This document shows positions 24,275 through 40,734 of a stretch of 64,000 nt of DNA, one piece after another; the stretch's first letter is position 1, and each line of letters begins with the position of its first letter. The stretch comes from Deltaproteobacteria bacterium (lineage in GTDB: Bacteria; Desulfobacterota; JBBIRW01), in NCBI GenBank assembly GCA_037441565.1, contig JBBIRW010000007.1:43297-107296 (forward strand). The letters are read 5' to 3'. The notes beneath the pieces are model-generated. The model worked only from the letters and a program-made list of their open reading frames with translations, ran no database searches and had not been told where the DNA came from. The translations under genes were made by a program, and so were the position numbers.

Positions 24275-24279
24275 GCTGA

Positions 24280-24717: not shown

Positions 24718-24835
24718 GGATACCTCCTTTCTTCCTGTATACAAATATATACTTCTGATAGAATACGCCACACATTATAGCAGGAGATATCCATATCATT
24801 CAATATCAATTTTTTATCTGCAACGAATCTCTCCC

Positions 24836-25399
24836 TCAGTGATGCTCACCAAGGTAGACTTCACTTAGATGATGTAAAAGCTTATGATATTCCTCATGTT
24901 TTCCTGGGCCAATCCTCTCCCTCTCGATCCTTTCAAAGTTCTCCAAAAGCTCCTTTTCCTTTTCTACTGAAATGCGCATCTCGCCCATAGGGTAAAGGAT
25001 GTTGTCTTCCTTGTAGATGTGATCCGTAAGAAGTGAAATATAGCCCCTTGCGTTTTTTACAAAATCTACGGAAGCCTTTTCATCACCAGTCCTGTATCTC
25101 GAAAAAGCATCATTCATACCCCTCAGATAACTCCGACCCATTTCATGTTCACTAAGCATAACACCGATTGGACCCCCTTCCTTTGGAATACCCAACTCCT
25201 CAAAAGCAGGGAATAGAAGGTCTTCCTCCTTCCCATGGTGACACCTATCGGCAAATGTTCTGATGAAATCGATAATCTTTTCGATATCATCGGGCTTTAC
25301 TCTCTCGTTTTTCTGAAGCATCTCACAAACCTTCTCCAGGACTTTTAGCATAAGCTTTATTGCCTTATGTTCCTCTTTAAGTTGTTCAGTTGGTTTCAT
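24836..25399 (-). CDS. hemerythrin-like (HHE cation-binding) domain protein
   Basis: 187 aa; His/Glu-rich hemerythrin-type pattern (HHGKEEDLLFP, LSEHEMG, HIYKEDNILYP). Confidence 0.75.
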   Translation of the reverse strand: MKPTEQLKEEHKAIKLMLKVLEKVCEMLQKNERVKPDDIEKIIDFIRTFADRCHHGKEEDLLFPAFEELGIPKEGGPIGVMLSEHEMGRSYLRGMNDAFSRYRTGDEKASVDFVKNARGYISLLTDHIYKEDNILYPMGEMRISVEKEKELLENFERIERERIGPGKHEEYHKLLHHLSEVYLGEHH

Positions 25400-25479
25400 G
25401 GTGATAACCTCCCATTCTGAAATTTCCTATATATTAAATCCATCACCGGCAAAAATCTATGAGCGAAATCATATTCTGA

Positions 25480-25653
25480 TTATATTTCGCATACAAATTC
25501 GCTCTTAGGTGCACCGCATATGGGACAGACCCAGTCTTCGGGTAGTTGATCAAATGGTGTCCCTTCCCCAATATTTGATTCCGGATCTCCCTTCTCAGGA
25601 TCATAAATATATCCACAGACTGTGCACCTGTATCTTAAAAATGTATCGATCAT
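25480..25653 (-). CDS. rub: rubredoxin
   Basis: 57-aa ORF below the track cut-off: [53 protein letters not shown]. Two CxxCG knuckles and conserved YIYDPE and [11 protein letters not shown] segments. Its ATG overlaps the upstream stop (ATGA). Confidence 0.85.
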
Positions 25654-26909
25654 CCTTTTACCTTCATGTTTTTTGGAAGTATTAATCTTATCGCCCTTTC
25701 ATAAAAAATATAATCCCATGCCCAGTTTATCAAAACTATAAGCCTGTTTCTGAATCCGATAAGGTTAAAAAGATGGACACTAAGCCATATTACCCATGCA
25801 GGGAAACCAGTAAATCCAAAACCTCTCAGGTGTGCAACAGCTTTATTACGACCTATTGTAACCATCGTTCCCTTATCTATATATCTGAAAGGAAGGGGAT
25901 CATCACCACGCAACTGACGGGCTATGTTTCTTCCTGCCCAATGTCCCTGCTGAATTGCAACAGGTGCAATCATAGGGAGAACTTTTCCATCTTCCTCCAG
26001 ATAAGCAAGGTCACCTATAACATAAATCCTTTGATCTTCCATCACCTGGAGTGTGGGAAGAACAGGAACCCTTCCACCTTTAATAGTTCTCAAACCTGAT
26101 TCCTCTGCTAATCTACTTCCACGAACACCTGCTGTCCATACAACGGTTCCTGTATCAATCCTCTTTCCTTCCTTTAACAAGATATGATCTTCCGCTATCT
26201 CAGTAACAATACTGTTCAATCTCACATCAACACCCATTGATTTAAGCCTATCAGCTGTATAAAGGGATAGTTTCTCAGGAATGCCAGGGAGAATAAAACC
26301 ACTAGCCTCAATAAGGATCAGTTTTACTTCACTTATATCAATGGTTGGAAAATCCTTTACAATAGGACCCCTTATAAGCTCTGCCAGCGCTCCTGCAAAC
26401 TCCACACCTGTTGGGCCACCTCCAACTATACAGAATGTAAGCATCCTTCCTCTCTTTCCACTATCCCTTTCATGAACTGCATGTTCAAAGCATGAGAGTA
26501 TATGATTCCTGAGGTAAATGGCATCATCCAATGTCTTTAAGGGAAAACTATATTCGGCTGCACCCTTCACATTAAAAAAATTTGATATACTTCCTGAGGC
26601 GATTATCAGGTAATCATAGCCAATAGTGAAGTCATCACCAACGACCATCCTTCTCCTTATGTCAATACCCTCTACCTCCCCCATTATAAACCTTACTGAT
26701 TGAAATTTTCTCAGGATACTCCTTACAGGATAGACAATATCCTCTGGCTCAAGCTCTGAGGCAGCAATTTGATATAGAAGCGGAAAAAAGGTATGATAAT
26801 TATTCCTGTCTATAAGAACTATCTCTCCATCTATCTTGCTCAGCGATTTCAGTGCCCACAGTCCACCAAAACCAGCACCTATTATAACAATCCTTGGGGC
26901 TTCAGGCAT
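25650..26909 (-). CDS. type II NADH dehydrogenase-family flavoprotein (NDH-2-like)
   Basis: 419 aa; two dinucleotide-binding motifs ([21 protein letters not shown]) and an amphipathic C-terminal anchor. Confidence 0.8.
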
Positions 26910-27334
26910 CAGGATTCTCCTTTATATCCTTTCAAATATCTATAATCCAGACTCAAAGGATCAGGTTCAGCATAGAGATACATTAACAGACCACCCATTA
27001 TCGCAAGATTTTTTAAAAACATGATTATCTGAAGTCTCTGAGAGAAGTCTGTATGGAAAATTATTGTTGTTGGTATTAAAAAGATCAGCAGCATTAAACT
27101 TCCCCATTTTGCCTTTATTCCAAGCAGAAGGGAAAGACCTCCGATTCCCTCGAGTAAAATTGCACCTATTAAGAAAAAACCAGGGTAAGGCATTCCATAC
27201 GCCCTCATATAGTTTATCGTCCCTGATGGGTCGATTATCTTTGTTATACATGAAATGATAAAGATAATCGAAATAAATACCCTTGAAAGTAACAAAACTA
27301 CACCCTTCATGAAAACCTCCTTTTCCAGCAGCAA
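26909..27334 (-). CDS. DoxX-family membrane protein
   Basis: 141 aa with four predicted TM helices; 1-nt stop/start overlap with the NDH-2 gene. Confidence 0.65.
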   Translation of the reverse strand: MLLEKEVFMKGVVLLLSRVFISIIFIISCITKIIDPSGTINYMRAYGMPYPGFFLIGAILLEGIGGLSLLLGIKAKWGSLMLLIFLIPTTIIFHTDFSQRLQIIMFLKNLAIMGGLLMYLYAEPDPLSLDYRYLKGYKGES

Positions 27335-27426: not shown

Positions 27427-28236
27427 TTGGAGATGCGAATAGTATTTTTGCGAAGAATCTTTGCCTTCTTAGGAAAATATCTGCCCATAATAACTATTCT
27501 GTTAATCTCTTCCACATATCCGTTAAAGGCACATACAGATGCGATGGAAGAGAGGAAAGAGGTAATTATAGAGGATAGAACAGGTAAATTTATCCCTCTT
27601 GATCTGGATTTTACCGATGAGAATGGGAAGGTTGTTTCGATCAAGGAACTCTTTAAGAAGCCGGTGATACTTTCTCCTGTTTACTTCAGCTGTCCCAATG
27701 TTTGCAATCTCCTTCTTGAAGAGATTGCCCGTCTTATTGATAAGATGGAAGCAGAACCAGGAAGGGACTACTCCATAATAACATTTAGTTTTGATGAAAA
27801 TGATAAGCCGGAAAAGGCACTTGAAAAAAAGAGGATTTTTCAAAAGATCATCAAGAAAAAAATTCCTGATGATTCATGGAAATTCCTCACAGGAGATAGA
27901 GAATCAATTAAAAGACTCACCGATGCAATCGGGTTTAATTTCAAAAGAAAGGGCGATGAATTTATACATCCTGTTTCACTGGTTGTTCTTTCAAGTGACG
28001 GTAAGATTATCCGTTATGTTCCTGGAAAGGCACTCCTTCCATTCGATCTGAAAATGGCTATTGCGGAGGCATCTGAAGGAAGAACGGGGGCAACTATAAA
28101 TAAAGTGCTTCTTCTCTGCTACAGTTATGATCCCCAAGGCAGGAGATACGTGCTTAATATAACAAGGATTGGAGGTGTAATTATACTACTTTCACTTGCT
28201 GGATTCTCAATATTTCTTCTGAGAAACAGGAGTTAA
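27427..28236 (+). CDS. SCO1/SenC-family copper chaperone (thioredoxin-like, CxxxC)
   Basis: 269 aa; signal peptide, thioredoxin-like domain with CPNVC, conserved C-terminal YDPQGRRYV segment followed by a TM helix. Confidence 0.8.
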   Translation: MEMRIVFLRRIFAFLGKYLPIITILLISSTYPLKAHTDAMEERKEVIIEDRTGKFIPLDLDFTDENGKVVSIKELFKKPVILSPVYFSCPNVCNLLLEEIARLIDKMEAEPGRDYSIITFSFDENDKPEKALEKKRIFQKIIKKKIPDDSWKFLTGDRESIKRLTDAIGFNFKRKGDEFIHPVSLVVLSSDGKIIRYVPGKALLPFDLKMAIAEASEGRTGATINKVLLLCYSYDPQGRRYVLNITRIGGVIILLSLAGFSIFLLRNRS

Positions 28237-28238: not shown

Positions 28239-29858
28239 ATGACGCAGGGCTCTATTCTCCTGAAAACTCACACGATTAGCTTTCTTGAAGAAAAAGGGAG
28301 ATATAAAGGTATACTTTCCTGGATCATGTCAACGAACCATAAGAGGATAGGTCTACTCTACCTTCTCTCCATGCTTTCTTTCTTCATTATCGGTGTTATC
28401 CTCGGACTTCTTATGAGACTTGAGCTTATTGCGCCGGGAAGAACCATAATGGGTCCGCAGACGTATAATTCCATATTCACCCTTCATGGAGTTATAATGA
28501 TATTTTTATTTGTTATCCCTGGAATACCTGCTGCGTTCGGGAATTTCTTCCTTCCCATACACATAGGTGCAAGGGATGTATCATTCCCGAGAATAAATCT
28601 TCTGTCCTGGTACTTCTTCATAGGCGGAGCAACACTTGTTGTGATATCGCTTTTTACAGGTGGAGGGCCTATTGATACAGGATGGACGTTCTATGCTCCA
28701 TATAGCATAAGAACAGGAACAAATGTGTCCCTCGCTGTCCTGGGCGCTTTTTTAATCGGATTTTCCTCAATACTAACAGGGCTTAATTTTGTGACGACCA
28801 TACACAGATTGAGGGCACCTGGAATGGGGTGGTTCCGCATGCCACTTTTCGTATGGTCCCTTTATGCAACAGGCTGGGTCCAGCTTCTTGCAACACCTGT
28901 CGTTGGAATAACACTAATTCTTATCATATGTGAGAGATTTTTTGGTGTCGGTTTTTTCGATCCAGCAAAAGGGGGTGATCCTCTGTTGTTTCAGCATCTC
29001 TTCTGGATCTACTCACACCCTGCTGTTTACATAATGATCCTTCCTGCGATGGGTGTTATCTCAGAAATAATCCCTGTTTTCTCAAGGAAGAATATATTTG
29101 GATATAAGGCAATAGCATTCTCAAGTCTTTCCATAGCTCTCGTTGGATATCTTGTATGGGGACACCATATGTTCACAAGCGGTATGAGTGATACTGCAAA
29201 GTGGGTATTTTCCCTATTAACATTTCTCGTGGCAATACCAAGTGGAGTTAAAACATTCAACTGGGTTGCAACAATGTATGGAGGATCAATTGAAATTGCC
29301 CCTCCATTGCTATATGCGCTCTCGTTTATATTTGCATTTTCAATAGGCGGTTTAACAGGTCTTATAAATGGAGCAATTGCCACTGATATTCACATACATG
29401 ATACATATTTTGTTGTTGGTCATTTCCATTATACCATGTTTGGTGGAACTGCCTTTGCTTTTTTTGGTGCACTTCACTACTGGTTTCCTAAGATGTTTGG
29501 AAAGATGTATAGCATAAGACTTGCAAATATTGCCTGGCTCATCCTTTTTACAGGTTTTAATATTTTATACTTTCCCATGTTTATCCTTGGATGGGAGGGG
29601 ATGCCGAGGAGATATTATGACTATCTTCCAAGATTCCATATGCTTCATCTCATATCAACCATCGGCTCCTGGATCCTTGCAACTGGTCTTATCCTTATGT
29701 TTTACAATTTTCTACGTTCCCTGAAATATGGTGAAAGGGCAGAACATAACCCCTGGGGTGGAAGCACACTGGAATGGCAGATACAGTCCCCTCCACCCCC
29801 AGAGAACTTCGAGCATATACCTGCTGTCAGCGCAGGACCTTATGATTTCAAAAGGTGA
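28239..29858 (+). CDS. ctaD: cytochrome c oxidase subunit I (heme-copper oxidase, A-type)
   Basis: 539 aa; 12 TM; SHPAVYIMILP (His-Tyr region) and WGHHMF (CuB histidines). Confidence 0.9.
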   Translation: MTQGSILLKTHTISFLEEKGRYKGILSWIMSTNHKRIGLLYLLSMLSFFIIGVILGLLMRLELIAPGRTIMGPQTYNSIFTLHGVIMIFLFVIPGIPAAFGNFFLPIHIGARDVSFPRINLLSWYFFIGGATLVVISLFTGGGPIDTGWTFYAPYSIRTGTNVSLAVLGAFLIGFSSILTGLNFVTTIHRLRAPGMGWFRMPLFVWSLYATGWVQLLATPVVGITLILIICERFFGVGFFDPAKGGDPLLFQHLFWIYSHPAVYIMILPAMGVISEIIPVFSRKNIFGYKAIAFSSLSIALVGYLVWGHHMFTSGMSDTAKWVFSLLTFLVAIPSGVKTFNWVATMYGGSIEIAPPLLYALSFIFAFSIGGLTGLINGAIATDIHIHDTYFVVGHFHYTMFGGTAFAFFGALHYWFPKMFGKMYSIRLANIAWLILFTGFNILYFPMFILGWEGMPRRYYDYLPRFHMLHLISTIGSWILATGLILMFYNFLRSLKYGERAEHNPWGGSTLEWQIQSPPPPENFEHIPAVSAGPYDFKR

Positions 29859-30484
29859 TTTTCATGATTAGTATTACTTCTTTCTCTGTTGAAAAACACA
29901 CTGATTATACTGGTTCAAAGATCGGTATGTGGTTATTTCTATTCACAGAAATGCTTCTTTTTGGGGGTCTCTTTCTCATTTATTCCACATACAGGGCAAA
30001 GTATCCCATCTCCTTCCATGTTGCAGCAAAAGATCTTAACATACAGATAGGTACGCTAAATACAATACTTCTTCTTACAAGCAGTCTCACAATGGCTATA
30101 TCGATATTATCAATAAAAAATGGAAGTAGAAGAGGGTCTGCTTCCTTTCTCATGATTACTATCATTTTCGGACTTTTATTCCTTTTCAACAAATACTTTG
30201 AATGGGGAGAAAAGATTGCGCACGGTATCTATCCGGGATCAGAAGCACTCTCCGTTATAGATTCATCCATTGTCCTTTTTTACAATCTATACTTTGTTAT
30301 GACAGGGCTTCATGCCTTACATGTCCTTGCGGGGATCTTCGTGCTTTTCATAATGTTTGTTTTACTCCTTAAGAAAAATATAAACAGGCATGATTTTGTC
30401 AAACTTGAAAATACAGGGCTATACTGGCATTTTGTAGATATAATCTGGATATACCTCTTTCCCCTTTTTTATCTGATAACATGA
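29855..30484 (+). CDS. ctaE: cytochrome c oxidase subunit III
   Basis: 209 aa polytopic protein with subunit-III C-terminal motif (LYWHFVDIIWIYLF); 4-nt overlap with subunit I. Confidence 0.8.
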   Translation: MIFMISITSFSVEKHTDYTGSKIGMWLFLFTEMLLFGGLFLIYSTYRAKYPISFHVAAKDLNIQIGTLNTILLLTSSLTMAISILSIKNGSRRGSASFLMITIIFGLLFLFNKYFEWGEKIAHGIYPGSEALSVIDSSIVLFYNLYFVMTGLHALHVLAGIFVLFIMFVLLLKKNINRHDFVKLENTGLYWHFVDIIWIYLFPLFYLIT

Positions 30485-30774
30485 GGTTTGCTATGCAAAA
30501 CAAGAGAAATGAAGCAGGTTTTTTGACATATCTTTTTGTGTGGATATCTCTCATTGTTCTCACTGCATTTACAGTTACAGTCGCGGCTCTTAATCTCGGA
30601 AAAATTGCTGTTCTCACAGCGCTATCAATTGCATCATTCAAATCGTTGATGGTTCTTAACTTCTTTATGCATCTGAAATATGAGGATCGTCTATTCCATT
30701 TCATGCTCCTTCTCTCTGTTATTACCCTTTCGATAATTATAGGATTCACATTTTTTGACATCTCTTTCAGATAG
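30481..30774 (+). CDS. cytochrome c oxidase subunit IV (bacterial small subunit)
   Basis: 97 aa, three TM helices; position between subunits III and II; 4-nt overlap. Confidence 0.6.
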   Translation: MRFAMQNKRNEAGFLTYLFVWISLIVLTAFTVTVAALNLGKIAVLTALSIASFKSLMVLNFFMHLKYEDRLFHFMLLLSVITLSIIIGFTFFDISFR

Positions 30775-30782: not shown

Positions 30783-31391
30783 ATGGAAAATTTTGCAGAA
30801 AGAGTAGATAACACATTCTTCTACATAGCTGGTATCTCAGTTTTTCTTCTCTTTTCCATCACAGTTTTCATGATCTACTGTCTTATCAGGTTCAACAGAA
30901 GGAGAAATCCGATGCCCGCTGATATCTCGGAAAATCTCTACCTCGAGATAGCATGGACAATTATCCCGATAATCCTTGTACTGTCCATGTTCTATTATGG
31001 ATGGACAGGATACAGGGTTCTGGGTAAAATACCCGAAGGATCGATGGATGTAAATGTTACGGCACGCATGTGGTCATGGACATTCAGGTACGAAAATGGA
31101 AAAGAAAGCGACCAACTTTATGTGCCAGCTGGCAAGCCAGTAAAATTAACGATCACATCAATGGATGTAATCCACTCCCTATATATACCCGCCCTAAGAA
31201 TAAAACAGGATGCAGTCCCCGGTATGAAAACGCACCTCTGGTTTAAAGCAGACATAAAGGGAGAATACGATATATTATGTGCTGAGTACTGTGGTCTCAG
31301 GCACTCCTATATGCTATCAAAGCTTATTGTTATGCCTGAAGAGGATTTCGTAAAATGGTATGATGGCAGGGATATTAAAAAATTAAAATAG
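30783..31391 (+). CDS. ctaC: cytochrome c oxidase subunit II (CuA, no fused cytochrome c)
   Basis: 202 aa; two TM helices plus cupredoxin domain with CuA ligands (VIHSLYIP, CAEYCGLRHSYM). Confidence 0.85.
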   Translation: MENFAERVDNTFFYIAGISVFLLFSITVFMIYCLIRFNRRRNPMPADISENLYLEIAWTIIPIILVLSMFYYGWTGYRVLGKIPEGSMDVNVTARMWSWTFRYENGKESDQLYVPAGKPVKLTITSMDVIHSLYIPALRIKQDAVPGMKTHLWFKADIKGEYDILCAEYCGLRHSYMLSKLIVMPEEDFVKWYDGRDIKKLK

Positions 31392-31394: not shown

Positions 31395-32705
31395 TTGAAT
31401 TTCGATCTGCTTTTAGAATATAAAATCCTAATGATGCAGGATTATCTCGCTGTTATCAAAGCTGAACATATAGAAACGCTTCGATATATTTCGACAGTTG
31501 CATTTGTTATCTTCTACCCCTTCATATCCATTATTCTCGGATATTTGATCCTCTCCTTCCTTTTCCTTCTCAGGGGGAGGGGAACCAATCACTTCTCATC
31601 CGAACTAACTTCATCCATAATACATACCATTACAAAGAGCAAGGGTCTTCTGTTTCTTGCAGGACTGCTTCCACCACTTACTGCATCCCTCGTTTTTATT
31701 GAAACAGGTCTTATGGAGAATAAGCATCTCGTTAATCTCTCATTACTCTCCCATATCCTTCTCTTCATTTCATTCATGTTTCTTTATCTTTATCGATCAA
31801 CAATAAACTTTATTCGCACAAAACCCGCAATCACACTCCTGTCATCTATCTTTTCAATCCTGACACTGCTTTTTTCCCTTTATATCCTCTCGTCTGTTCT
31901 TTCATCAGTATCAAACAGAGAAAAGGCTAATCTATTTTTGAATGCCATTGATCCGCTTATATCATGGAATGCCGTTGTAAGATACCTGAGGATTATTGTT
32001 CTTGCGCTTTCATTTGCTTTTTCGACCTTTATAGTTTTTTTTAAATATTTTTATAAAAGTAAAACAGTGGATGATCCTTCCCTCAGAAATGCCATAATCT
32101 ATTCCTCACTCGTATTGCTTATCCTTATACCTCCGCTTTCCCTATGGTATATCTATACCCTCCCTGAGCCTTCCCTATCACCTTTTATATTTCTGTTATC
32201 AATAATCTTAACGATTGCATCCTCTATCATTATATGGCTCCTTTACAGCTGCCTTGATGGAATAAAATCGAAATACAAATATAGCATACTCATCCTTTTC
32301 ATATTGCAGTTTATGTTTATTTCAGGTATGGAATATATCGAAAGAGAAACATCACATAGAGAAAATACCATGTTATTATTATCAAAAGCACAGGTTGTTA
32401 AAGAAGGGATAAGGACTGAAAAGAAAAAAGTTGAGATGGATGAGAAGGCAACCCTTGAAAAGGGGGAGAAGGTTTTCAAAACGGTTTGCTCAGCCTGTCA
32501 CAGCTTCACTCAAAGGGTTGTTGGTCCTCCTTTAAATGCTGTTATTCCATCTTACAGGAATAAGGTTGATGAGCTAAAAAACTTCATAAAGAATCCTGTG
32601 AAAAAAGATCCCTCCTATCCTCCAATGCCGAATCTGGGACTTCCAGATGATGAAATAGAGGCTGTCTCATTATATCTCCTGAAGGAGATAGGAGAGAAAA
32701 AGTAG
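31395..32705 (+). CDS. polytopic membrane protein with C-terminal monoheme cytochrome c domain
   Basis: 436 aa; about 8-10 TM helices, then a soluble C-terminus with CSACH heme-binding motif and PPMP (likely Met ligand). Start uncertain. Confidence 0.6.
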   Translation: MNFDLLLEYKILMMQDYLAVIKAEHIETLRYISTVAFVIFYPFISIILGYLILSFLFLLRGRGTNHFSSELTSSIIHTITKSKGLLFLAGLLPPLTASLVFIETGLMENKHLVNLSLLSHILLFISFMFLYLYRSTINFIRTKPAITLLSSIFSILTLLFSLYILSSVLSSVSNREKANLFLNAIDPLISWNAVVRYLRIIVLALSFAFSTFIVFFKYFYKSKTVDDPSLRNAIIYSSLVLLILIPPLSLWYIYTLPEPSLSPFIFLLSIILTIASSIIIWLLYSCLDGIKSKYKYSILILFILQFMFISGMEYIERETSHRENTMLLLSKAQVVKEGIRTEKKKVEMDEKATLEKGEKVFKTVCSACHSFTQRVVGPPLNAVIPSYRNKVDELKNFIKNPVKKDPSYPPMPNLGLPDDEIEAVSLYLLKEIGEKK

Positions 32706-32714: not shown

Positions 32715-33227
32715 GTGAGAAGATCCCTTGTTCTTGCAACCATTTCATGCTATGCATCGATCTTCTCCATCATATTTTTATCAATAGGCTATTATAACTA
32801 TTACCATGATGGGCCACCCATTCAGCCCATCGCCTTCAGCCATCGTATACATGTTGCAAAGGTTGGCCTTCCCTGCAACTTTTGCCATGTTTATGCTGAT
32901 AAATCAAAAAATGCCGGAATCCCTCATATCCAGAAATGCATGGATTGTCACAGGGCTGTTGCTGTAGAAAAGCCTGAAATAAAGAAACTTACTTCATACT
33001 GGGAACAGCGTAAACCCATAGAATGGATCAAGATTTACAAACTTCCCGATCATGTTTATTTTTCACATAAGAGACATATAAAGAAGGGGGTAGAATGTTC
33101 ACAGTGCCATGGTGAAGTACAGGTCATGGACAGGGTAAGAAGGGTAAGAACTTTAAAGATGGGGTGGTGTGTGAGATGTCACAGGGTAAATGATGCACCA
33201 ACTGATTGTCTCACATGCCATAAATGA
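32715..33227 (+). CDS. actA: Alternative Complex III subunit ActA (pentaheme cytochrome c)
   Basis: 170 aa; N-terminal TM helix and five CxxCH motifs (CNFCH, CMDCH, CSQCH, CVRCH, CLTCH). Confidence 0.8.
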   Translation: MRRSLVLATISCYASIFSIIFLSIGYYNYYHDGPPIQPIAFSHRIHVAKVGLPCNFCHVYADKSKNAGIPHIQKCMDCHRAVAVEKPEIKKLTSYWEQRKPIEWIKIYKLPDHVYFSHKRHIKKGVECSQCHGEVQVMDRVRRVRTLKMGWCVRCHRVNDAPTDCLTCHK

Positions 33228-33239: not shown

Positions 33240-36056
33240 ATGAATAGAAGAAACTTCATGAAGTTCCTTGGCTTCATTACAGGATCAACATTTCTTTCAT
33301 CATGTGGCATTGACAAAGGTTTAAGAAAAATCATATCTTATGCCATACCACCAGAAAAGGAGATCATACCTGGTGAGCCATTATTTTTTAACACAACCTG
33401 CACAGAATGCCCTGCCCTCTGCGGGATTCAGGTTAAGGCATATGAAAAGATCTTTGATACGGAAAGGGGTATCTACCCTGTAAAGCTTGAAGGTATACCG
33501 GATCATCCCATCAATTATGGCACACTATGTATAAGGGGTCAGGCATCCATAACACGACTCTACAATCCCCATCGTATAAAAGATCCCTTAATTAAGGAAA
33601 GGGATGGAGTTTTCAGATCGATAAGCTGGGATCAAGCATTCCAGACCATAATTTCAGAAATCGAAAAACATAAAGCCGAGAAAAGATATAACTTCTTCAT
33701 TTCATCAAGAACAACGGGTTCCCTCTCATTACTTATTGATGAATTCTGTCACGAATTCAATATAAAGAGACTTCCGGAATTTGAAATATATAATTATTCT
33801 GCAATCAGAAAAGCAAACTCATTCCTTTTCGGAAAATATTCAATACCTCATTACAACATAAAGGACGCTGATTTTCTTTTAACAATGGGTGCTGATATTT
33901 TTGAGACTTTTATCAGTCCTGTTTCACACGCAGTTCAATTCTCTATTGCACGGAAAAACAATAATCTAAAGTGGTTTCATGTTGAACCACATCTTTCATT
34001 AACAGGAATATGTTCTGATAAAAGATTTACAATCAATCCTGGAACAGAAATATATCTTCTTATTTATATCCTGACTTCTATTCAAAAAAGAAAAATAAGC
34101 AGCAACATTCCTGCTTCAGTTGGTCAATTAATTCCCTCTCTGCCTTTGGATATTCTGAAAGAAAAAACAGGGCTAAAAGAGGAAGAAATCCTTCTCATAA
34201 GGGATGCTTATCTTAATTCAAAAAGACCCCTCATTATAACAGGTGGCGTCTCAACCAGAAGTGGCAGTGGATTCGAAGTGGCTGTTCTCTCAGGATTAAT
34301 CAATTGGGCTTCCGGATCTATCGGTAGCCTTGTTGATTTCAGCAGAGAAGAGAACTACTTAAGGGTAGGAACAATAGAGGAATTTGTTAATTTCCTTAAA
34401 ACAATTGATGAGAATAACACAGGTTTGCTCTTTCTCCTTAAAACAGATCCTGTTTCCATCTTTCCTCAGCATCTTGGAGTTAAAGAAAAACTCATCAGGG
34501 CGAGATTTAAGGTCTCCCTTTCGGACTCATTCAATGAGACAACAAAAATTTGTGATCTTATCCTCCCCCTTTCTCACTCTCTTGAATCGTGGGGAGATGC
34601 AAATCCAAGAAGAGGACTTGTTAATCTCATCCAGCCTGCAACAAAAACAATTTTCAATACAAAATCGCATGGTGACATAATTATCGAGATTATGAAAAGA
34701 AAGGGAAAAGTTGTTTCTGAAGATTTTAAATCCTTTGTTATGAGTAATTATCAGAAAAGATATGGAAAAGATTCATTAAATATGTTTATTGAAAAAGGCT
34801 TTCATGAAGAAAACCCCTCCCCTGTAAGGGTATCATTCAACGAAGAGAATGCGCAACTGTTCTTGAGGAAGCTCAAATATCCTGAAGCTATGAAAACTCC
34901 CCTTCTTATTCTTTCTCCTTCGTTGAGGTTTTTTGATGGAAGATCTTTTGATCTTGAACTCTTAAAAGAAATCCCGGATCCTTTAAGCACGATATCCTAT
35001 GGGAGCTGGATCTCCCTTTCAGAGGAGACAGCAAAAAAATTGAACATCTCAGAAAGGGATGAGCTCGAAATTACTAAGGACCGATGGTCTATAAGAGTTC
35101 CTGCAAAGATTCAGAAAGGTATAGGAAAGGATATATTTATCGTCCAGATCGGAGGACCGATAAATTATAGTGGCATGACCGATCCCAGAAGCGGTGAAAT
35201 CCTCTCATACATTGAAGGTATAAATATAAGAAAAACGGGAAAGAATGTTTCCATACCAATCCTTTCAGGCTCAATGTCACAGGAAGGAAGGGGTATAATA
35301 CCTTATCCCATACATAGAACTGAAAATAATAAAAAACACAAAGAGAGTTTATATCCTGAACATAAACATGAAAATTACCGATGGGCTATGACTATAGATC
35401 TCGATCTCTGTATAGGATGCTCGGCATGTGTTGCTGCATGTTATATTGAGAACAATGTTCCTATTGTAGGGATTGATGAACATCTCAAAGGAAGAGAGAT
35501 GTCCTGGATCAGGGTCGAGCCATTTTATGATGAAAAGGATGGAATAAGATTCCTGCTCATGCTATGCCAGCAATGTGATTATGCTCCGTGTGAACCTGTC
35601 TGCCCTGTTTATGCAACATATCATAATCCTGAAGGAATAAATGCACAGGTCTATAACAGATGTGTTGGAACAAGGTACTGCTCAAATAACTGTCCGTATA
35701 AGGTCAGAAGATTTAACTGGTATCCTCATGAATGGGAATTCCCAAGGGACAGGATGTTAAATCCTGAGGTATCAGTAAGACAGGCAGGCGTAATGGAAAA
35801 GTGCACATTCTGCATACAACGTATAAGAAGAGCACATGATATCGCAAAGGATGAAGGCAGGTCCATAAGGGATGGTGAAGTAATGCCTGCATGTGCCCAG
35901 ACATGCCCCACCCGTGCAATTACATTTGGTAATATTCTTGATAAGAATTCATCTGTATATAAGCTTTCAAAGTCCGACCGTTCATATCGCATCTTTGAGC
36001 AACTCGGAACAGAACCATCGATATATTATCTTGGAAAGAGGAGAGGAGATGAATAA
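33240..36056 (+). CDS. actB: Alternative Complex III subunit ActB (molybdopterin-oxidoreductase-like + FeS domains)
   Basis: 938 aa; twin-arginine signal (RRNFMKF), large molybdopterin-like domain, C-terminal 4Fe-4S ferredoxin domains (CIGCSACVAAC, CQQCDYAPCEPVCP). Confidence 0.85.
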   Translation: MNRRNFMKFLGFITGSTFLSSCGIDKGLRKIISYAIPPEKEIIPGEPLFFNTTCTECPALCGIQVKAYEKIFDTERGIYPVKLEGIPDHPINYGTLCIRGQASITRLYNPHRIKDPLIKERDGVFRSISWDQAFQTIISEIEKHKAEKRYNFFISSRTTGSLSLLIDEFCHEFNIKRLPEFEIYNYSAIRKANSFLFGKYSIPHYNIKDADFLLTMGADIFETFISPVSHAVQFSIARKNNNLKWFHVEPHLSLTGICSDKRFTINPGTEIYLLIYILTSIQKRKISSNIPASVGQLIPSLPLDILKEKTGLKEEEILLIRDAYLNSKRPLIITGGVSTRSGSGFEVAVLSGLINWASGSIGSLVDFSREENYLRVGTIEEFVNFLKTIDENNTGLLFLLKTDPVSIFPQHLGVKEKLIRARFKVSLSDSFNETTKICDLILPLSHSLESWGDANPRRGLVNLIQPATKTIFNTKSHGDIIIEIMKRKGKVVSEDFKSFVMSNYQKRYGKDSLNMFIEKGFHEENPSPVRVSFNEENAQLFLRKLKYPEAMKTPLLILSPSLRFFDGRSFDLELLKEIPDPLSTISYGSWISLSEETAKKLNISERDELEITKDRWSIRVPAKIQKGIGKDIFIVQIGGPINYSGMTDPRSGEILSYIEGINIRKTGKNVSIPILSGSMSQEGRGIIPYPIHRTENNKKHKESLYPEHKHENYRWAMTIDLDLCIGCSACVAACYIENNVPIVGIDEHLKGREMSWIRVEPFYDEKDGIRFLLMLCQQCDYAPCEPVCPVYATYHNPEGINAQVYNRCVGTRYCSNNCPYKVRRFNWYPHEWEFPRDRMLNPEVSVRQAGVMEKCTFCIQRIRRAHDIAKDEGRSIRDGEVMPACAQTCPTRAITFGNILDKNSSVYKLSKSDRSYRIFEQLGTEPSIYYLGKRRGDE

Positions 36057-37362
36057 GGCGATTTCCAAAGCCATTGAGTTTCGTTACCGGATTGAAAAGG
36101 ATGTTCTCGCTGCAATGAAGAAACCCCATATCCAGTACTGGATCTTCCTTTTTATCTCAGTCATCTTGTTTGTAACTGGCATGTCCCTCTGGTACTACCA
36201 GATAAAAACAGGGATGGGTGTCTCCGGTAAAACGCATCCTGTCGGATGGTACATGTATATAACAAATTTTGTATTCTGGGTTGGAATCGCCCATTCAGGA
36301 ACACTTATATCAGCTGTTCTTTTTCTATTCCGGGCAGGATTCAGGAGCAGTTTCAACAGATCTGCAGAAGCAATGACCGTCTTTGCCATTATGACTGCAG
36401 GGCTCTTCCCCATAATACATCTTGGAAGACCATGGCTTTTCTACTGGTTGCTTCCATACCCGAATGAGAGGCTACTCTGGGTTAACTTCAGATCACCGCT
36501 TATATGGGATGTCTTCGCTGTTGGGACATATTTTACGGTAAGTCTTATCTTCTTTTATGTTGGTATGATTCCCGATCTTGCCATTGCAAGGAGATATGCA
36601 ACAGGATGGAAGAGGCGCCTGTACTCCTTCCTTTCACTCGGATGGCAGGGAACACCGGATCAATGGAGGCACTATAACAGACTATATATGTTTCTTGCAT
36701 CATTTGCAACTCCGCTTGTTGTTTCAGTCCACTCTGTTGTTTCATGGGATTTCGCTATGAGCATTATCCCAGGATGGCATACAACCATATTTGCCCCATA
36801 TTTTGTTGCAGGTGCTATATTTTCTGGAACAGCGATGGTAATAACGCTTGTTGTTCCAATGAGAAAGTTTTTTTCCCTTGAAAAATATATAACTTTAGAT
36901 CACTTTGATAGCATCGCTAAAATATTACTTCTTACATCTCTCATAGTGAGCTATTCATATATCGTGGAATTCTCCATGGCATTTTATGGTGGAAATATAT
37001 TCGAAATGGAAGTATTCAGGTACAGGGCATTTGGTGATTTCTGGATATTCTTCGCCATAATGATTATATGCAACTCCATTATTCCCCTCTTTCTATTCAT
37101 AAGAAAGCTAAGAAGAAATATAAAATTTCTTTTCATATCATCCCTTTTTGTTAATGTGGGTATGTGGATGGAAAGATTCGTAATCATAGTTACTTCCCTT
37201 TCCAGAGACTTTGATCCTTACGCATGGGGACTTCCATCATTCAGCACTGTTGCTATAGGAATCACGCTTGGCAGTTTCGGAATGTTTTTCATGCTTTTTC
37301 TTATATTTGTAAAGGTCCTTCCAATCCTTTCCATTACAGAATTAAAAGAGGTTCACGAATGA
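36049..37362 (+). CDS. actC: Alternative Complex III subunit ActC (NrfD/PsrC-like membrane subunit)
   Basis: Polytopic NrfD-like protein; start set at internal ATG 36049 (MNKAISKA), 8-nt overlap with actB; the track ORF begins at 35893 inside actB. Confidence 0.8.
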   Translation: MNKAISKAIEFRYRIEKDVLAAMKKPHIQYWIFLFISVILFVTGMSLWYYQIKTGMGVSGKTHPVGWYMYITNFVFWVGIAHSGTLISAVLFLFRAGFRSSFNRSAEAMTVFAIMTAGLFPIIHLGRPWLFYWLLPYPNERLLWVNFRSPLIWDVFAVGTYFTVSLIFFYVGMIPDLAIARRYATGWKRRLYSFLSLGWQGTPDQWRHYNRLYMFLASFATPLVVSVHSVVSWDFAMSIIPGWHTTIFAPYFVAGAIFSGTAMVITLVVPMRKFFSLEKYITLDHFDSIAKILLLTSLIVSYSYIVEFSMAFYGGNIFEMEVFRYRAFGDFWIFFAIMIICNSIIPLFLFIRKLRRNIKFLFISSLFVNVGMWMERFVIIVTSLSRDFDPYAWGLPSFSTVAIGITLGSFGMFFMLFLIFVKVLPILSITELKEVHE

Positions 37363-37814
37363 AAAAGGAATATCTGTTTGAAGACAAACACGAATTTGTC
37401 GAAAAATTGAAAGATCTTTTAAAAAAGGGGGTGCCTGTTGATCGAATGCAAATATACCTCCCTTTCCCTGTCGAAGAAGTAGAAGAGATTCTTGGAAGAC
37501 CGGTTAGTAAACTGAATTTCATTACCCTTCTCGGTGCAATCACTGGAACTATTACGGGCTTCGGATTCACAGCTTATACAGTTTTAAGCTGGCCTCTTAT
37601 AACGGGAGGAAAGCCACTGATATCCATCCCTGCATTTGTTATTATAGCATTTGAATTGACAATTCTTTTTGGATCGATCACATCGTTTCTCGGATTCCTT
37701 TCACTCTCACGCCTCCCTGATATTAGAAGGATTCTGAATCCCATGGAATTTGACAACAGATTTGCAATAGTGATAGATGATGGAGAAGATGATGGAAAAA
37801 GGGATGAGGATTAA
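37359..37814 (+). CDS. actD: Alternative Complex III subunit ActD-like small membrane protein
   Basis: About 151 aa from internal ATG 37359 (MKKEYLFEDK), ATGA overlap with actC; one or two TM helices; position matches ActD. Confidence 0.6.
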   Translation: MKKEYLFEDKHEFVEKLKDLLKKGVPVDRMQIYLPFPVEEVEEILGRPVSKLNFITLLGAITGTITGFGFTAYTVLSWPLITGGKPLISIPAFVIIAFELTILFGSITSFLGFLSLSRLPDIRRILNPMEFDNRFAIVIDDGEDDGKRDED

Positions 37815-38811
37815 CCATTACTTCTTATATCTCTTTATTGGTGGATTTTTTATTGTTGCTGTTGAGTTTTTTGCAGGAATAACAAAGGGTTCACTTCTCT
37901 TCACTCTTTCGTATTGGATTGCCATCACTCATGGCTGCATTGCACTTGTTACAGCAGCTAATATTGCAAAGGCTAAATGGATAACTCCACTAAAGAGATA
38001 CCTTCTTTCCGTTTACCCGTTGCTATTGCTTCACTCAATCCTTTTTCTTTTTGTTACTTATGAGCTGGATATATATCCATGGGTTAAAAGTGAAGGATTA
38101 TGGTTAAACAGGCCATTCTTTATAGCAAGAAACTTCTTCCTGCTCTTTCTTTCCTTTTTATCTGCACGAAAATTCTCCAAGGAATCATTAATTGATAGTG
38201 AAAGAAAAAACATCTATGGCTCAATTTATATCGCATTCTTTGTTGCATCACAATCAATGATTGCATTCGACTGGATAATGTCTCTCGAATATCCCTGGTA
38301 CAGCACACTCTTTGGAGGTTATTTTTTCATTGAATCCATATACTCCGGTATTGCAATTTCAGGGATTGTATGTCTATTTCTTATGAGAAAAACTGGGAGC
38401 CAAATCAGTGAAGACCTGGTCAAGACTTTGAGGGATATTGCTACACTAATTTTCGGGTTCAGCTTACTCTGGGCAGGGCTTTTCTATGCGCAGTTCCTTG
38501 TTATCTGGTATGGAAACATTCCTGAGGAGGTAAGCTTTCTGTTTGTAAGGACTAAATTATCACCTTACCGGGAAATCTCGCTTGTTATACTCCCCTCACT
38601 ATTCTTCTTCCCCTTTCTAACACTCCTTTCAAGAAAGACAAAAACGATCCCATTGATCGTCTCAATTATATCGGTATCGATACTTATGGGTATATTTCTT
38701 GAAAGACTGCTATTCCTCCTTCCATCCGTTAAGCTAAATCCTGTAAAGGTAATCTCTCAATCAATCATTATGGCAGCACTGATTATTCTAACGATCAAGA
38801 GAAATAATTAG
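37777..38811 (+). CDS. actF: Alternative Complex III subunit ActF-like polytopic membrane protein
   Basis: 344 aa, about 9 TM helices, immediately after actD; assigned by position and topology only. Confidence 0.55.
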   Translation: MMEKMMEKGMRINHYFLYLFIGGFFIVAVEFFAGITKGSLLFTLSYWIAITHGCIALVTAANIAKAKWITPLKRYLLSVYPLLLLHSILFLFVTYELDIYPWVKSEGLWLNRPFFIARNFFLLFLSFLSARKFSKESLIDSERKNIYGSIYIAFFVASQSMIAFDWIMSLEYPWYSTLFGGYFFIESIYSGIAISGIVCLFLMRKTGSQISEDLVKTLRDIATLIFGFSLLWAGLFYAQFLVIWYGNIPEEVSFLFVRTKLSPYREISLVILPSLFFFPFLTLLSRKTKTIPLIVSIISVSILMGIFLERLLFLLPSVKLNPVKVISQSIIMAALIILTIKRNN

Positions 38812-38824: not shown

Positions 38825-40708
38825 TTATGTCCCTTTCACAACGAGAATGGGAATATCACCTATATCATGTTGAACAGCAGAAACTGTTGAACCGTATATC
38901 CAGTCTTTTATGTGCTTGTGACCGTGACTCCCAAGAACAAGGAGATCCAGATTCTCTTCTTTTGCTATTTTTACAACCCCTTTTGCTGCATTTCCAAATC
39001 CTATTCGGAAACTTGCCCTTATTCCCTGTGCCCTGATCTTTTCTGAAAGTTTTATTAGGTAATCCTCGTCCCCTGTTCTCTCCCTATCCTCCGCTGTTCC
39101 GCCCCACACCTGAGCAGTTGCACTCTCAACAATATGAATGAGAACAATCTCTGCATCGTATCTCAGTGCAAGGGCAAGTGCATGTTTGAGTATCTTTTGG
39201 TCCGTTTCCTTCACCTCAAGAGCAACCCCTATCTTCCCATATCCAGTGTCCTCCTGAATGGATGGTATCACGGGTTCCGGTACAGAAGTTGGTCTCCTTT
39301 CTAATAATTTCTTGATAAATGGTCCAAATCCCATATACCCTAATAATAGCATCAAAAACGCACCGATTGGAATTACTATAAAATCAACCCACATAGCTGT
39401 CATCCTCCATTCAGACACCGTCTCCCAGACAAGCCAGAGGTTAAGACCTATGATAAAAAGTGCAACAAGCCATGAGAGGATTCTTACCCATAAAGGGTTG
39501 GCAAATTTACCCATCCATTCACGATCACTTGTAAACTGGATAAGGGGGACAATTGCAAAGGGAAGCTGCAGAGATAGAATTACCTGGCTCAGTATGAGAA
39601 GCCTGTATGTACCATGGCTTCCGCTTATTGCAATAACAATAACTGCGGGGATGACAGCAAGTAATCGAGAAATGAGCCTTCTTGCCCATGGCTGAATCTT
39701 TATCCGAATAAATCCCTCCATTACAATCTGCCCTGCTAGTGTTCCTGTGAGTGTTGAAGATTGACCTGCAGCAAGAAGTGCAACAGCAAAGGCAGTGGAG
39801 GCGAGACCTGTTCCCAGCAGTGGTGAGAGAAGTTCGTGCGCCTGCTGAATTTCAACCACCTGAATGCCTCGAGAATAAAAAACAGAAGATGAGAGAACAA
39901 GTATTGCTGAATTCACAAAGAAAGCGGCATTGAGGGCAATAACAGTATCTATAAGATTAAAGCGCGCTGCCGCCTGGATACCCTTGTCCGTTCGCTCAAC
40001 TGCCCTGCTCTGAACAAGCGCTGAATGAAGGTAAAGGTTGTGCGGCATAACAGTTGCTCCCAGCATGCCAAGTGCAACGTAAAGGCTATCACTATCAATT
40101 GTGGGAATAAAACCACCCATAATTGATCTGAAATCAGGTTTAGCAAGAAAGATCTCAACTACAAAACAACAACCTACAATAAATATCAAACCGAGGATTA
40201 TTCCTTCAAATTTGCGAATACCATATCGTTGAATCAGAAGCAGAAGCATTGTATCAAGAGCTGTTAAACTTACACCGATTATAAGTGGAATTCCAAATAA
40301 GAGATTTAAACCTATCGCTGTTCCAAGGACTTCAGCGAGATCGCATGCGGCTATCGCAAGCTCACAGATGATCCACAGAGGATAGTATACAAAAGGCGGA
40401 TATGCTTCACGACATGCCTGAGCGAGATCGCATCTTGCAACAAGACCCAGACGGGCGGAAAGCGTTTGCAGGAGAACAGCCATCAGATTGCTCGCAAGTA
40501 GAACCCATATGAGCCTGTATCCAAACCTTGCTCCCCCTTCGAGATCCGTCGCCCAGTTACCCGGATCCATGTATCCCACAGAAACAAGATATGCAGGACC
40601 AAGGAAAGCAAAGAGGCGCTTCCACCATTTCCAGTAGTGTGGAATCTTCACTGATTCGTAAATTTCAGGAAGGGATACGGTTTCTGTCTTATTGAATTTC
40701 GACCACAT
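38825..40708 (-). CDS. mntH: NRAMP-family divalent metal transporter with C-terminal UspA domain
   Basis: 627 aa; NRAMP motifs (DPGNWATDLEGG, GATVMPHNLYLHS), then a cytoplasmic universal-stress-protein domain (LVLGSHGH...IPILVV). Confidence 0.8.
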   Translation of the reverse strand: MWSKFNKTETVSLPEIYESVKIPHYWKWWKRLFAFLGPAYLVSVGYMDPGNWATDLEGGARFGYRLIWVLLASNLMAVLLQTLSARLGLVARCDLAQACREAYPPFVYYPLWIICELAIAACDLAEVLGTAIGLNLLFGIPLIIGVSLTALDTMLLLLIQRYGIRKFEGIILGLIFIVGCCFVVEIFLAKPDFRSIMGGFIPTIDSDSLYVALGMLGATVMPHNLYLHSALVQSRAVERTDKGIQAAARFNLIDTVIALNAAFFVNSAILVLSSSVFYSRGIQVVEIQQAHELLSPLLGTGLASTAFAVALLAAGQSSTLTGTLAGQIVMEGFIRIKIQPWARRLISRLLAVIPAVIVIAISGSHGTYRLLILSQVILSLQLPFAIVPLIQFTSDREWMGKFANPLWVRILSWLVALFIIGLNLWLVWETVSEWRMTAMWVDFIVIPIGAFLMLLLGYMGFGPFIKKLLERRPTSVPEPVIPSIQEDTGYGKIGVALEVKETDQKILKHALALALRYDAEIVLIHIVESATAQVWGGTAEDRERTGDEDYLIKLSEKIRAQGIRASFRIGFGNAAKGVVKIAKEENLDLLVLGSHGHKHIKDWIYGSTVSAVQHDIGDIPILVVKGT

Positions 40709-40734
40709 TACTACTCATCATTCTATAAATGTTT

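What the first reader, a model, noticed from the sequence alone, without database searches (positions are those of the whole stretch)
31395..32705. Polytopic membrane protein with a C-terminal monoheme cytochrome c domain sits between the cox and act genes
The protein has about 330 residues of strongly hydrophobic sequence (8-10 predicted helices, very few His, so not a heme A synthase) followed by a soluble domain with CSACH and a PPMP Met-ligand region. Its position between coxII (no heme c domain) and actA (ActE absent) suggests a dedicated electron carrier linking ACIII to the oxidase, standing in for ActE or the caa3 c-domain. I do not recognise the membrane domain as any known family.
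Basis: inference. Interest (0 to 1): 0.7.

Follow-up and report, generated by a model that had tools for sequence, protein, structure and literature searches.

The report
Membrane cytochrome c with bd-oxidase fold
The gene between the oxidase and alternative-complex-III genes encodes a one-heme cytochrome c on a long stalk above an eight-helix membrane domain shaped like a cofactor-less cytochrome bd oxidase subunit; it belongs to an unannotated family that almost always sits next to these respiratory genes and probably passes electrons between the two complexes.

Summary
Window 31395-32705 (+) is one ORF with 8 TM helices, a ~50-residue charged stalk and a class-I monoheme cytochrome c domain (C365SACH369, M411). 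It lies between a CoxII without a heme c domain and actA. No ActE is present in the window.

The family has 77 clusters at 50% identity and nearly always keeps this fused architecture. About 50 loci from many phyla show three layouts: cox-TARGET-actABCDF, TARGET-actABCDF, and actBC-actD/E fusion-actF-cyt c-cox-ctaB-TARGET. Wherever ActE is missing, the gene directly precedes actA.

Best reading: a membrane-integral cytochrome c, functionally like ActE, that links ACIII to the oxidase, with a bd-fold scaffold domain. It is not an ActE ortholog, and it does not generally replace the caa3 c-domain. I rate it a new variant of a known kind.

The parts
31395..32705 (+). Target ORF: 8-TM bd-fold membrane domain, stalk and monoheme cytochrome c (436 aa from TTG 31395; the likely true start is ATG 31431, giving 424 aa)
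31497..32339 (+). Eight-TM membrane domain (residues ~35-315) made of two four-helix bundles. Fold matches cytochrome bd subunits I/II. No conserved His/Cys/Met. Family-wide conserved residues are P42, G49, G90, P93, Y133, G151, P246, P257 and D/E313
32340..32444 (+). Highly charged linker (residues ~316-350), predicted as a helix continuous with TM8 (helix 292-363). The distance from D/E313 to the heme Cys is conserved at ~51 residues across the family
32445..32702 (+). Class-I monoheme cytochrome c domain (c551/c552-like), periplasmic
32487..32501 (+). Heme-binding motif C365-S-A-C368-H369
32625..32627 (+). Met411 in 'YPPMPNLGL', the probable sixth heme ligand (99% conserved)
27427..28236 (+). 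SCO1/SenC copper chaperone, first gene of the operon
28239..29858 (+). CoxI (A-type heme-copper oxidase subunit I)
29855..30484 (+). CoxIII
30481..30774 (+). CoxIV (prokaryotic)
30783..31391 (+). CoxII with a CuA site and no heme c domain (202 aa)
32715..33227 (+). ActA, a minimal pentaheme cytochrome c (170 aa, N-terminal TM helix)
33240..36056 (+). ActB (fused molybdopterin-like and FeS domains)
36049..37362 (+). ActC (NrfD-like quinol-binding subunit; start inferred from ortholog L002)
37359..37814 (+). ActD (not fused to a cytochrome, so no ActE)
37777..38811 (+). ActF (no Pfam hit; assigned by position and by homology to ActF of related loci, which match ActC at 99% by hhalign)

Best explanation
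The gene encodes a membrane-integral monoheme cytochrome c that acts as the periplasmic electron link of an ActE-less lineage of alternative complex III.

Proposed pathway (inferred): menaquinol is oxidised at ActC. Electrons pass through the ActB FeS clusters and the five ActA hemes to the target's c551-like heme. From there they go to CuA of the adjacent aa3-type oxidase. In this genome the transfer is direct, because CoxII has no c-domain. In relatives with a caa3-type CoxII it goes through that c-domain.

The heme domain is held on a length-conserved, ~50-residue charged helical stalk above an eight-helix membrane domain. That domain has the two-four-helix-bundle fold of cytochrome bd oxidase subunits, most like the heme-less CydB. 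In this protein it has no heme or proton-channel ligands. It therefore most likely serves as a cofactor-free scaffold that docks the cytochrome in the membrane next to ACIII and/or the oxidase, possibly stabilising a supercomplex.

Shown: architecture, topology logic, fold, lack of ligands, synteny. Inferred: electron path, docking role.
For: Architecture and periplasmic placement of the heme domain.

A Pfam-significant class-I cytochrome c with invariant CxxCH and Met. It is structurally c551-like (Foldseek TM 0.75).

Synteny over ~50 loci from Thermodesulfobacteriota, Calditrichota, Ignavibacteria/Kapabacteria, Deferrimicrobiaceae, Acidobacteriota, Krumholzibacteria-like and other MAGs. The gene is next to actA and/or the cox-ctaB genes in all loci with enough flank except L018 and L043. 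In every ActE-less actABCDF cluster it directly precedes actA and is the only monoheme c present.

The heme domain is most similar to the caa3 CoxII c-domain, the natural donor to CuA (hhalign 98%, E = 1e-13).

Only Gly, Pro, Tyr133 and Asp/Glu313 are conserved family-wide, and the window protein has Phe at the position of the bd heme-ligand His.

Stalk length is conserved at ~51 residues.

In R. marinus, ActE sits on top of the ActA heme wire and donates to caa3 (PMC5928083), which is the role proposed here.
Against: No experiment exists on any family member.

In Ignavibacteria-type clusters the gene coexists with ActE (as an ActD/E fusion) and another cytochrome c, and is encoded with cox/ctaB rather than act. 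The ActE-substitute role therefore cannot be the whole story.

Eight conserved TM helices are far more than an anchor needs. Conserved periplasmic-face polar residues (Q103, E176, W178, W191, N192, D313), and a His triad in one large clade, hint at an additional function that remains unexplained.

L018 and L043 carry the gene away from act/cox genes.

ActE could be encoded elsewhere in this genome, since only 64 kb was seen.
Confidence: 0.55

Rival explanations
1. It is a divergent catalytic member of the cytochrome bd superfamily, like the OR-C family (8 TM helices plus C-terminal heme c). Heme c would feed a membrane-embedded heme site that reduces O2 or another small oxidant, making TARGET plus ACIII a self-contained quinol-to-acceptor pathway.
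For: The architecture is the same as OR-C CydA: eight TM helices plus an extended C-terminal periplasmic heme c portion (bioRxiv 10.1101/2021.01.16.426971). The bd fold ranks first with two models. A weak but in-register alignment puts the family's His40 on CydA's heme-ligand His, and 11 members hit CydA HMM positions 13-73 at the same place. A large clade has a co-occurring periplasmic-side His25/His40/His324 plus Asp313 pattern. Type B loci have TARGET-actABCDF with no oxidase genes nearby.
Against: The window protein has Phe40 and Asn324. No His is conserved across the family, and the His pattern does not follow synteny type. There are no equivalents of E99/E107, H186 or M393. No OR-C1a/CydA-like partner gene is adjacent in any locus. 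The family-vs-CydA profile score is no higher than against unrelated membrane proteins. PF01654 is hit by only 3 of 70 members, and weakly. The family's taxa are absent from the published OR-C lists.
Confidence: 0.08
2. It is an oxidase biogenesis factor, for example supplying electrons or a scaffold for heme O/heme A or copper insertion into CoxI/CoxII, rather than a subunit in the steady-state electron path.
For: In type C, and in some type A loci, the gene directly follows the heme O synthase gene ctaB at the end of the SCO1-coxI-III-IV-II operon. That is a position typical of assembly genes. No canonical heme A synthase is seen in any of these clusters or in the window.
Against: At least 11 loci with 4-10 kb of upstream flank have TARGET-actABCDF and no cox or ctaB genes nearby. 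In Calditrichaceae L010 an unrelated insertion separates ctaB from the gene, yet the gene stays glued to actA. There is no similarity to CtaA, CtaG, Surf1 or SCO families. A canonical heme A synthase is reported for the related organism Caldithrix abyssi (PMC5317091), so a substitute is not needed there.
Confidence: 0.12
3. The membrane domain is a third, highly divergent NrfD-like subunit of ACIII (alongside ActC and ActF). It would bind quinol or conduct ions, and is fused here to the exit cytochrome.
Confidence: 0.1

Closest known systems
OR-C family of the cytochrome bd superfamily (OR-C1a/OR-C1b; Murali, Gennis & Hemp 2021)
   Same: Eight TM helices followed by a periplasmic C-terminal heme c domain. 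Many members are annotated only as 'cytochrome c'. The membrane domain has the bd-oxidase fold. The 'b'-type paralogs also lack the proton-channel glutamates.
   Different: OR-C1a keeps H19, E99 and E107 and is recognisable as CydA. OR-C genes occur as adjacent a/b pairs. The target family is always a single gene, has no family-wide His or Glu ligands, is not detectably similar to CydA in sequence, sits in act/cox clusters, and its taxa are absent from the published OR-C lists.
CydB (cytochrome bd oxidase subunit II)
   Different: CydB has nine helices, no cytochrome c domain, and always partners with CydA. There is no PF02322 match here and no adjacent CydA partner.
ActE (monoheme cytochrome c subunit of alternative complex III)
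   Same: A monoheme class-I cytochrome c encoded in the act cluster. It is present exactly where ActE is missing, with the expected position at the end of the ActA heme wire.
   Different: ActE is a small lipoprotein-type or ActD-fused protein encoded between actD and actF. The target has an 8-TM domain and is encoded upstream of actA. Its heme domain is less similar to ActE (hhalign 86%, 5e-6) than to the caa3 c-domain (98%, 1e-13). It coexists with ActE in Ignavibacteria-type clusters.
Cytochrome c domain of caa3-type CoxII, and small c551/c552 cytochromes
   Same: This is the closest sequence and structure class for the heme domain. These are the natural donors to CuA.
   Different: The domain is fused to a bd-fold membrane protein instead of CoxII. 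Several relatives have both a caa3-type CoxII and this protein.
Membrane-anchored cytochromes c such as cytochrome cy and CycM (from my own knowledge)
   Same: A tethered class-I cytochrome c that shuttles electrons between a quinol oxidoreductase and a terminal oxidase while staying at the membrane.
   Different: Those proteins use a single N-terminal TM helix and a flexible linker. Here the anchor is a conserved 8-TM domain at the N-terminus with a rigid-looking helical stalk.

Membership tests
Class I cytochrome c (PF00034 / PF13442) | Single CxxCH heme-attachment motif with a distal Met ligand; profile score above the Pfam gathering threshold | tested here: met
   CSACH at 365-369 and Met411 in PPMP. 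PF13442 scores 32.2 bits (cutoff 27) and PF00034 scores 28.1 (cutoff 21.3). CxxCH is invariant and Met is 99% conserved in the family. Foldseek TM is 0.75 to P. aeruginosa c551.
ActE (ACIII monoheme subunit) | Monoheme cytochrome c encoded within the act gene cluster | tested here: met
   It has one heme and is encoded 9 nt upstream of actA. However, it lies upstream of actA rather than between actD and actF.
ActE (ACIII monoheme subunit) | Sequence kinship with ActE heme domains | tested here: not met
   The family heme-domain HMM scores ActE domains at a median of 7.9 bits, against 27.6 for caa3 CoxII c-domains. hhalign gives 86% (5e-6) for ActE against 98% (1e-13) for the CoxII c-domain.
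ActE (ACIII monoheme subunit) | Small protein anchored by a lipobox/N-terminal segment or fused to ActD | tested here: not met
   The anchor is an 8-TM, 330-residue N-terminal domain. The description of R. marinus ActE is in PMC5928083.
Cytochrome bd superfamily, subunit I (CydA, including OR-C/OR-N) | Two-four-helix-bundle bd fold | tested here: met
Cytochrome bd superfamily, subunit I (CydA, including OR-C/OR-N) | Sequence match to Cyt_bd_oxida_I (PF01654) or a CydA profile | tested here: not met
   The target has no hit. Only 3 of 70 members hit, and weakly (best E = 0.0012). hhalign gives P = 0.037, no better than against CoxIII or UbiA controls. The test has little power, because CydA vs CydB scores the same.
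Cytochrome bd superfamily, subunit I (CydA, including OR-C/OR-N) | Active-site heme ligand His19 (E. coli numbering) in TM1 | tested here: not met
   The aligned position 40 is Phe in the window protein. It is His in about half of diverse members and is not family-wide.
Cytochrome bd superfamily, subunit I (CydA, including OR-C/OR-N) | Proton-channel Glu99/Glu107 and heme b558 ligands His186/Met393 | tested here: not met
   There are no conserved acidic residues in TM3 and no conserved His or Met in TM5/TM7. The reference residues come from Supplementary Table 6 of the bd-superfamily paper.
OR-C1 (a/b) bd-type enzymes | Eight TM helices plus a C-terminal periplasmic heme c domain | tested here: met
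   for the target; definition.
OR-C1 (a/b) bd-type enzymes | Adjacent pair of paralogous CydA-like genes (OR-C1a + OR-C1b) | tested here: not met
   No second bd-like gene is adjacent in about 55 loci. The only CydA hits are canonical CydAB pairs in L006, L051 and L060.
CydB (bd subunit II) | bd fold without heme ligands | tested here: met
CydB (bd subunit II) | PF02322 match and obligatory pairing with CydA | tested here: not met
   No PF02322 hit. No adjacent CydA.
NrfD-like subunits (ActC/ActF/PsrC; PF03916) | Sequence membership (PF03916, or profile similarity to ActC/ActF) | tested here: not met
   No PF03916 hit in 70 members. hhalign probability against ActC and ActF is below 1%, while ActC vs ActF gives 99%.
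NrfD-like subunits (ActC/ActF/PsrC; PF03916) | Eight-helix core of two four-helix bundles | tested here: inconclusive
Heme A synthase (CtaA/COX15) | Eight TM helices with conserved His pairs that ligate heme; PF02628 | tested here: not met

The most novel reading that the evidence does not exclude
The family is an exapted, cofactor-stripped descendant of cytochrome-bd-type (OR-C-like) oxidase subunits that has been recruited as an integral subunit of a distinct, widespread ACIII lineage. There it would replace ActE and physically bridge ACIII to A-type oxidases. In the clade that retains the periplasmic-side His triad, it may still bind a b-type heme, giving ACIII a bd-like redox module.
Probability: 0.2. 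Interest if true: 0.85.

Novelty: new variant of a known kind. Interest (0 to 1): 0.6.

Why it matters
ACIII is the least understood of the quinol:cytochrome c oxidoreductases. How electrons leave it is an open question, sharpened by the finding that ActE is dispensable in Flavobacterium. This work identifies a conserved, unannotated protein that marks an ActE-less ACIII lineage across at least seven phylum-level groups (Thermodesulfobacteriota, Calditrichota, Ignavibacteria/Kapabacteria, Deferrimicrobia, Acidobacteriota, Krumholzibacteria-like, Kryptoniota).

The family gives three things:
- A concrete candidate for the electron-exit and supercomplex-tethering subunit.
- An unexpected structural link between the cytochrome bd superfamily and ACIII/heme-copper oxidase systems.
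- A correction for genome annotation, where the protein is currently called just 'cytochrome c' or is counted as ActE.

It is directly testable by proteomics or cryo-EM of ACIII from carrier organisms. Close relatives of cultured genera such as Melioribacter carry it.

Tried and rejected
1. Pfam and NCBIfam scans of the target, and Pfam scans of 70 family members, found nothing for the membrane domain. The only signals were sporadic weak hits: PF01654 in 3 of 70 and DUF4131 in 6 of 70.

2. HMMER profiles against all PDB sequences were run with the full-length and the N-domain-only alignments. Only cytochrome c hits appeared, and nothing matched the membrane domain.

3. Profile-profile comparison with CydA looked encouraging at first, with an in-register alignment of His40 on the H19 equivalent. 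Controls showed the score is at background: CoxIII 23.2 and UbiA 21.6 against CydA 22.9. I therefore do not claim sequence homology. A forced-global hhalign run was meaningless.

4. I tested whether the His25/His40/His324 pattern separates cox-linked from act-linked members. It does not.

5. Heme A synthase or an alternative heme-A factor: rejected, as set out under the rivals.

6. The afdb50 fold library was unavailable.

7. The search for related loci with the 70-sequence alignment failed for lack of a conserved stretch. It worked with the 13-sequence alignment.

8. The second homologous-protein search, with the N-domain profile, was dominated by one clade because of the word index. It revealed no bd- or NrfD-annotated intermediates.

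9. Literature searches found no description of this protein. The MBNT15 genome paper counts a single 'actE' in its act clusters, which may be this gene.

Full report
OBSERVATION

The ORF is real and is as described. Window 31395-32705 (+) is a single open frame of 436 codons from a TTG. The database copy of the same protein (P0001, 100% identical, 424 aa) starts at Met13. The N-termini of relatives align there too, so ATG 31431 is the more likely start.

A hydropathy scan gives eight TM helices. The K/R-rich loops (54-83, 131-145, 217-229, 284-296) all fall on one side. Since the heme c domain must be periplasmic, the topology is N-out/C-out.

Residues 353-429 pass the Pfam thresholds for class-I cytochrome c: PF13442 scores 32.2 bits against a cutoff of 27, and PF00034 scores 28.1 against 21.3. 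Nothing in Pfam or NCBIfam matches residues 1-335.

The operon reads SCO1, CoxI, CoxIII, CoxIV, CoxII (202 aa, no CxxCH), TARGET, ActA (170 aa, five CxxCH), ActB, ActC, ActD, ActF. A motif scan of all six frames finds no other credible c-type cytochrome in the 64 kb, apart from the CoxII of a second oxidase operon. ActE is therefore absent locally.

IS THE FUSION REAL, AND HOW BIG IS THE FAMILY?

A word-indexed search returned 13 relatives with identical architecture. An exhaustive phmmer search with the membrane domain alone, against 1.84 billion cluster representatives, returned 77 clusters, nearly all 420-450 aa. Of 75 full-length database members, 74 carry a C-terminal CxxCH. The gene is therefore not two ORFs joined by a sequencing error. 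All sources name these proteins simply 'cytochrome c'.

CONSERVATION

Across the family, the heme motif, the Met ligand and the 'VGPP...NPxK..P.YPPMPNxGL' core are nearly invariant. In the membrane domain the conserved positions are almost all Gly/Pro/Ser (P42, G49, S/A54, G90, P93, G151, P246, P257). The others are Tyr133, Asp/Glu313 and, mostly, Gln103.

No His, Cys or Met is conserved family-wide. Three His (positions 25, 40, 324) co-occur in one large clade (pattern HHQYDH). The window protein reads H-F-E-Y-E-N at positions 25, 40, 103, 133, 313 and 324. The His pattern does not follow gene-context type.

FOLD

- After that come only generic four-helix bundles.

Foldseek independently ranks bd subunits first, led by the heme-less CydB (TM ~0.6 normalised to the target). 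It matches the heme domain to cytochrome c551 (TM 0.75).

The model shows TM8 continuing as one long helix (292-363) into the heme domain. The spacing from Asp/Glu313 to the heme Cys is conserved at ~51 residues in 145 sequences.

The two halves of the membrane domain show a weak internal-repeat signal (E = 6.6e-4).

SEQUENCE-LEVEL LINK TO BD OXIDASES: NOT DEMONSTRATED

A local hhalign of the family against a CydA profile aligns in register. Family His40 lands on the CydA heme-ligand His, G49 on 'LTMG', and G90/P93 on 'TGIPME'. A CydA HMM hits eleven members at the same place.

However, the score (22.9, P = 0.037) is no better than the scores against CoxIII (23.2) or UbiA (21.6). CydA vs CydB itself scores only 24.2, so the test has no power either way.

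ActC vs ActF is detected at 99%, while the family matches neither. It is therefore not an ordinary NrfD-family member.

CONTEXT

A scan of one genome per species (GTDB) gave 65 loci, of which about 52 are true family members. The closest is an uncultured Thermodesulfobacteriota MAG at 83% identity. I annotated neighbours with phmmer, using the window's own proteins as references, and found three layouts.
- Type A: SCO1-CoxI-III-IV-II-(CtaB)-TARGET-ActA-B-C-D-F. Found in the window, Thermodesulfobacteriota, Calditrichaceae, Acidobacteriota and the Krumholzibacteria-like clade.
- Type B: TARGET-ActA-B-C-D-F with no oxidase genes in up to 10 kb upstream. Found in Deferrimicrobiaceae and various 'Deltaproteobacteria' MAGs, with at least 11 clear cases.
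- Type C: ActB-ActC-ActD/E fusion-ActF-cytochrome c (~310 aa)-SCO1-CoxI-III-IV-II-CtaB-TARGET. Found in Ignavibacteria, Melioribacter, Kapabacteria, Kryptoniota and other Bacteroidota MAGs, with 16 full and about 7 partial cases.

In every type A and B locus, ActD is unfused and the target is the only monoheme cytochrome in the act cluster. In Calditrichaceae L010 an unrelated 2-oxoacid dehydrogenase insertion separates ctaB from the target, yet the target stays adjacent to actA. Several type A relatives have a caa3-type CoxII with its own heme c. Only L018 and L043 lie outside act/cox contexts.

WHICH CYTOCHROME IS THE HEME DOMAIN?

I built profiles from the cytochromes in these same clusters. 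The target domain is closest to the caa3 CoxII c-domain (hhalign 98.1%, 1e-13). The ~310-aa cytochrome comes next (94.7%), and ActE is last (86%, 5e-6). PDB sequence hits are c551/c552/c555-type cytochromes.

INTERPRETATION

The best-supported reading is a membrane-integral monoheme cytochrome c that provides the electron exit of an ActE-less ACIII lineage and connects it to the terminal oxidase. Here that is an aa3-type enzyme whose CoxII lacks a c-domain. The heme domain sits on a rigid, length-conserved stalk above a cofactor-free bd-fold (CydB-like) membrane domain, which probably docks it to ACIII and/or the oxidase.

The architecture, fold, lack of ligands and synteny are shown. The electron path and the docking role are inferred, by analogy with ActE on top of the ActA heme wire donating to caa3 in R. 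marinus (PMC5928083).

Four caveats apply.
- ActE is dispensable in F. johnsoniae (PMC8552683).
- The gene coexists with ActE in type C clusters.
- An eight-helix conserved domain, with conserved periplasmic-face polar residues, is more than an anchor needs.
- One clade keeps a His triad.

COMPARISON WITH KNOWN SYSTEMS

The nearest described architecture is the OR-C family of the bd superfamily, which has eight TM helices plus C-terminal heme c. OR-C1a retains H19/E99/E107 and is recognisably CydA. OR-C genes occur as adjacent a/b pairs. The published OR-C lists contain none of the taxa that carry this family.

The target is not ActE by descent or by anchor type. It is not a sequence member of the NrfD family. 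It is not a heme A synthase.

I found no paper describing it. Genome papers on related organisms either do not mention it or appear to count it as 'actE'.

VERDICT

I classify the feature as a new variant of a known kind: a membrane-tethered respiratory cytochrome c with an unprecedented bd-fold scaffold that marks a distinct ACIII lineage. Interest is 0.6.

Noticed in passing
window 44689-50150 (minus strand): There is a second A-type heme-copper oxidase operon: CoxIII (48940-49683), a 591-aa triple fusion of SCO1, CoxII and a cytochrome c domain (47151-48926), CoxI (45557-47134) and a bona fide heme O synthase CtaB (44689-45717). An unscanned ORF at 49737-50150 lies upstream and looks Rrf2-like from its sequence (my own reading). 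No heme A synthase was seen in the window.
   Followed up: partly
window 23533-27334 (minus strand): An oxygen-defence gene set is transcribed divergently from the SCO1-cox-target-act operon: Fe/Mn superoxide dismutase, a ferritin/rubrerythrin-like protein, hemerythrin, NDH-2 and DoxX. The ortholog locus L002 also has a rubredoxin here. This suggests the oxidase/ACIII system serves O2 detoxification or microaerobic respiration in a Thermodesulfobacteriota-type organism.
   Followed up: partly
window 38825-44692: Two unusual fusions sit next to each other. One is an Nramp transporter fused to a universal stress protein domain (38825-40708). The other is a CobW-type GTPase fused to Archease (40735-42048), next to RtcB (42109-43611) and an ORF at 43604-44692 that resembles RNA cyclase RtcA (my own reading of its sequence; not scanned).
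   Followed up: partly
window 32715-33227: ActA here is a minimal 170-aa pentaheme cytochrome, and NCBIfam's best hit is QrcA of the sulfate-reducer Qrc complex. It is much shorter than the 444-residue F. johnsoniae ActA chain (6btm_A). That makes an extra exit heme more plausible.
   Followed up: no
L008 1091-2704 (P0003); L013 4799-6433: Some family members carry two tandem cytochrome c domains (diheme variants) after the same 8-TM domain.
   Followed up: no
L018 9965-11236; L043 9965-11224: Two Ignavibacteria MAG copies of the family lie outside any act/cox context. L018 is next to molybdenum-cofactor genes MoeA/MobA, and L043 is next to an ABC-2 transporter gene. They may be paralogs with another partner.
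   Followed up: partly
L074 10001-11356, L075 10001-11350, L010 9965-11266 (and P0090-P0159): A large clade (Krumholzibacteria-like and some Calditrichaceae) retains a co-occurring, periplasmic-side His25/His40/His324 plus Asp313 pattern in the membrane domain. His40 aligns with the bd heme-ligand His. These members might still bind a heme, unlike the window protein.
   Followed up: partly
L051 and L060, downstream of the target; L006 9809-12219: Canonical cydAB genes lie directly beside the family gene in three Ignavibacteria-type loci. This is probably respiratory-gene clustering, but it is notable given the bd-like fold of the target.
   Followed up: no
window 50326-56370: Downstream on the plus strand are pyruvate:ferredoxin oxidoreductase-type subunits, a thioredoxin-like [2Fe-2S] ferredoxin, and NuoF-like and 2Fe-2S/4Fe-4S proteins. 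This gene set is typical of anaerobes and sits next to two oxidase operons.
   Followed up: no
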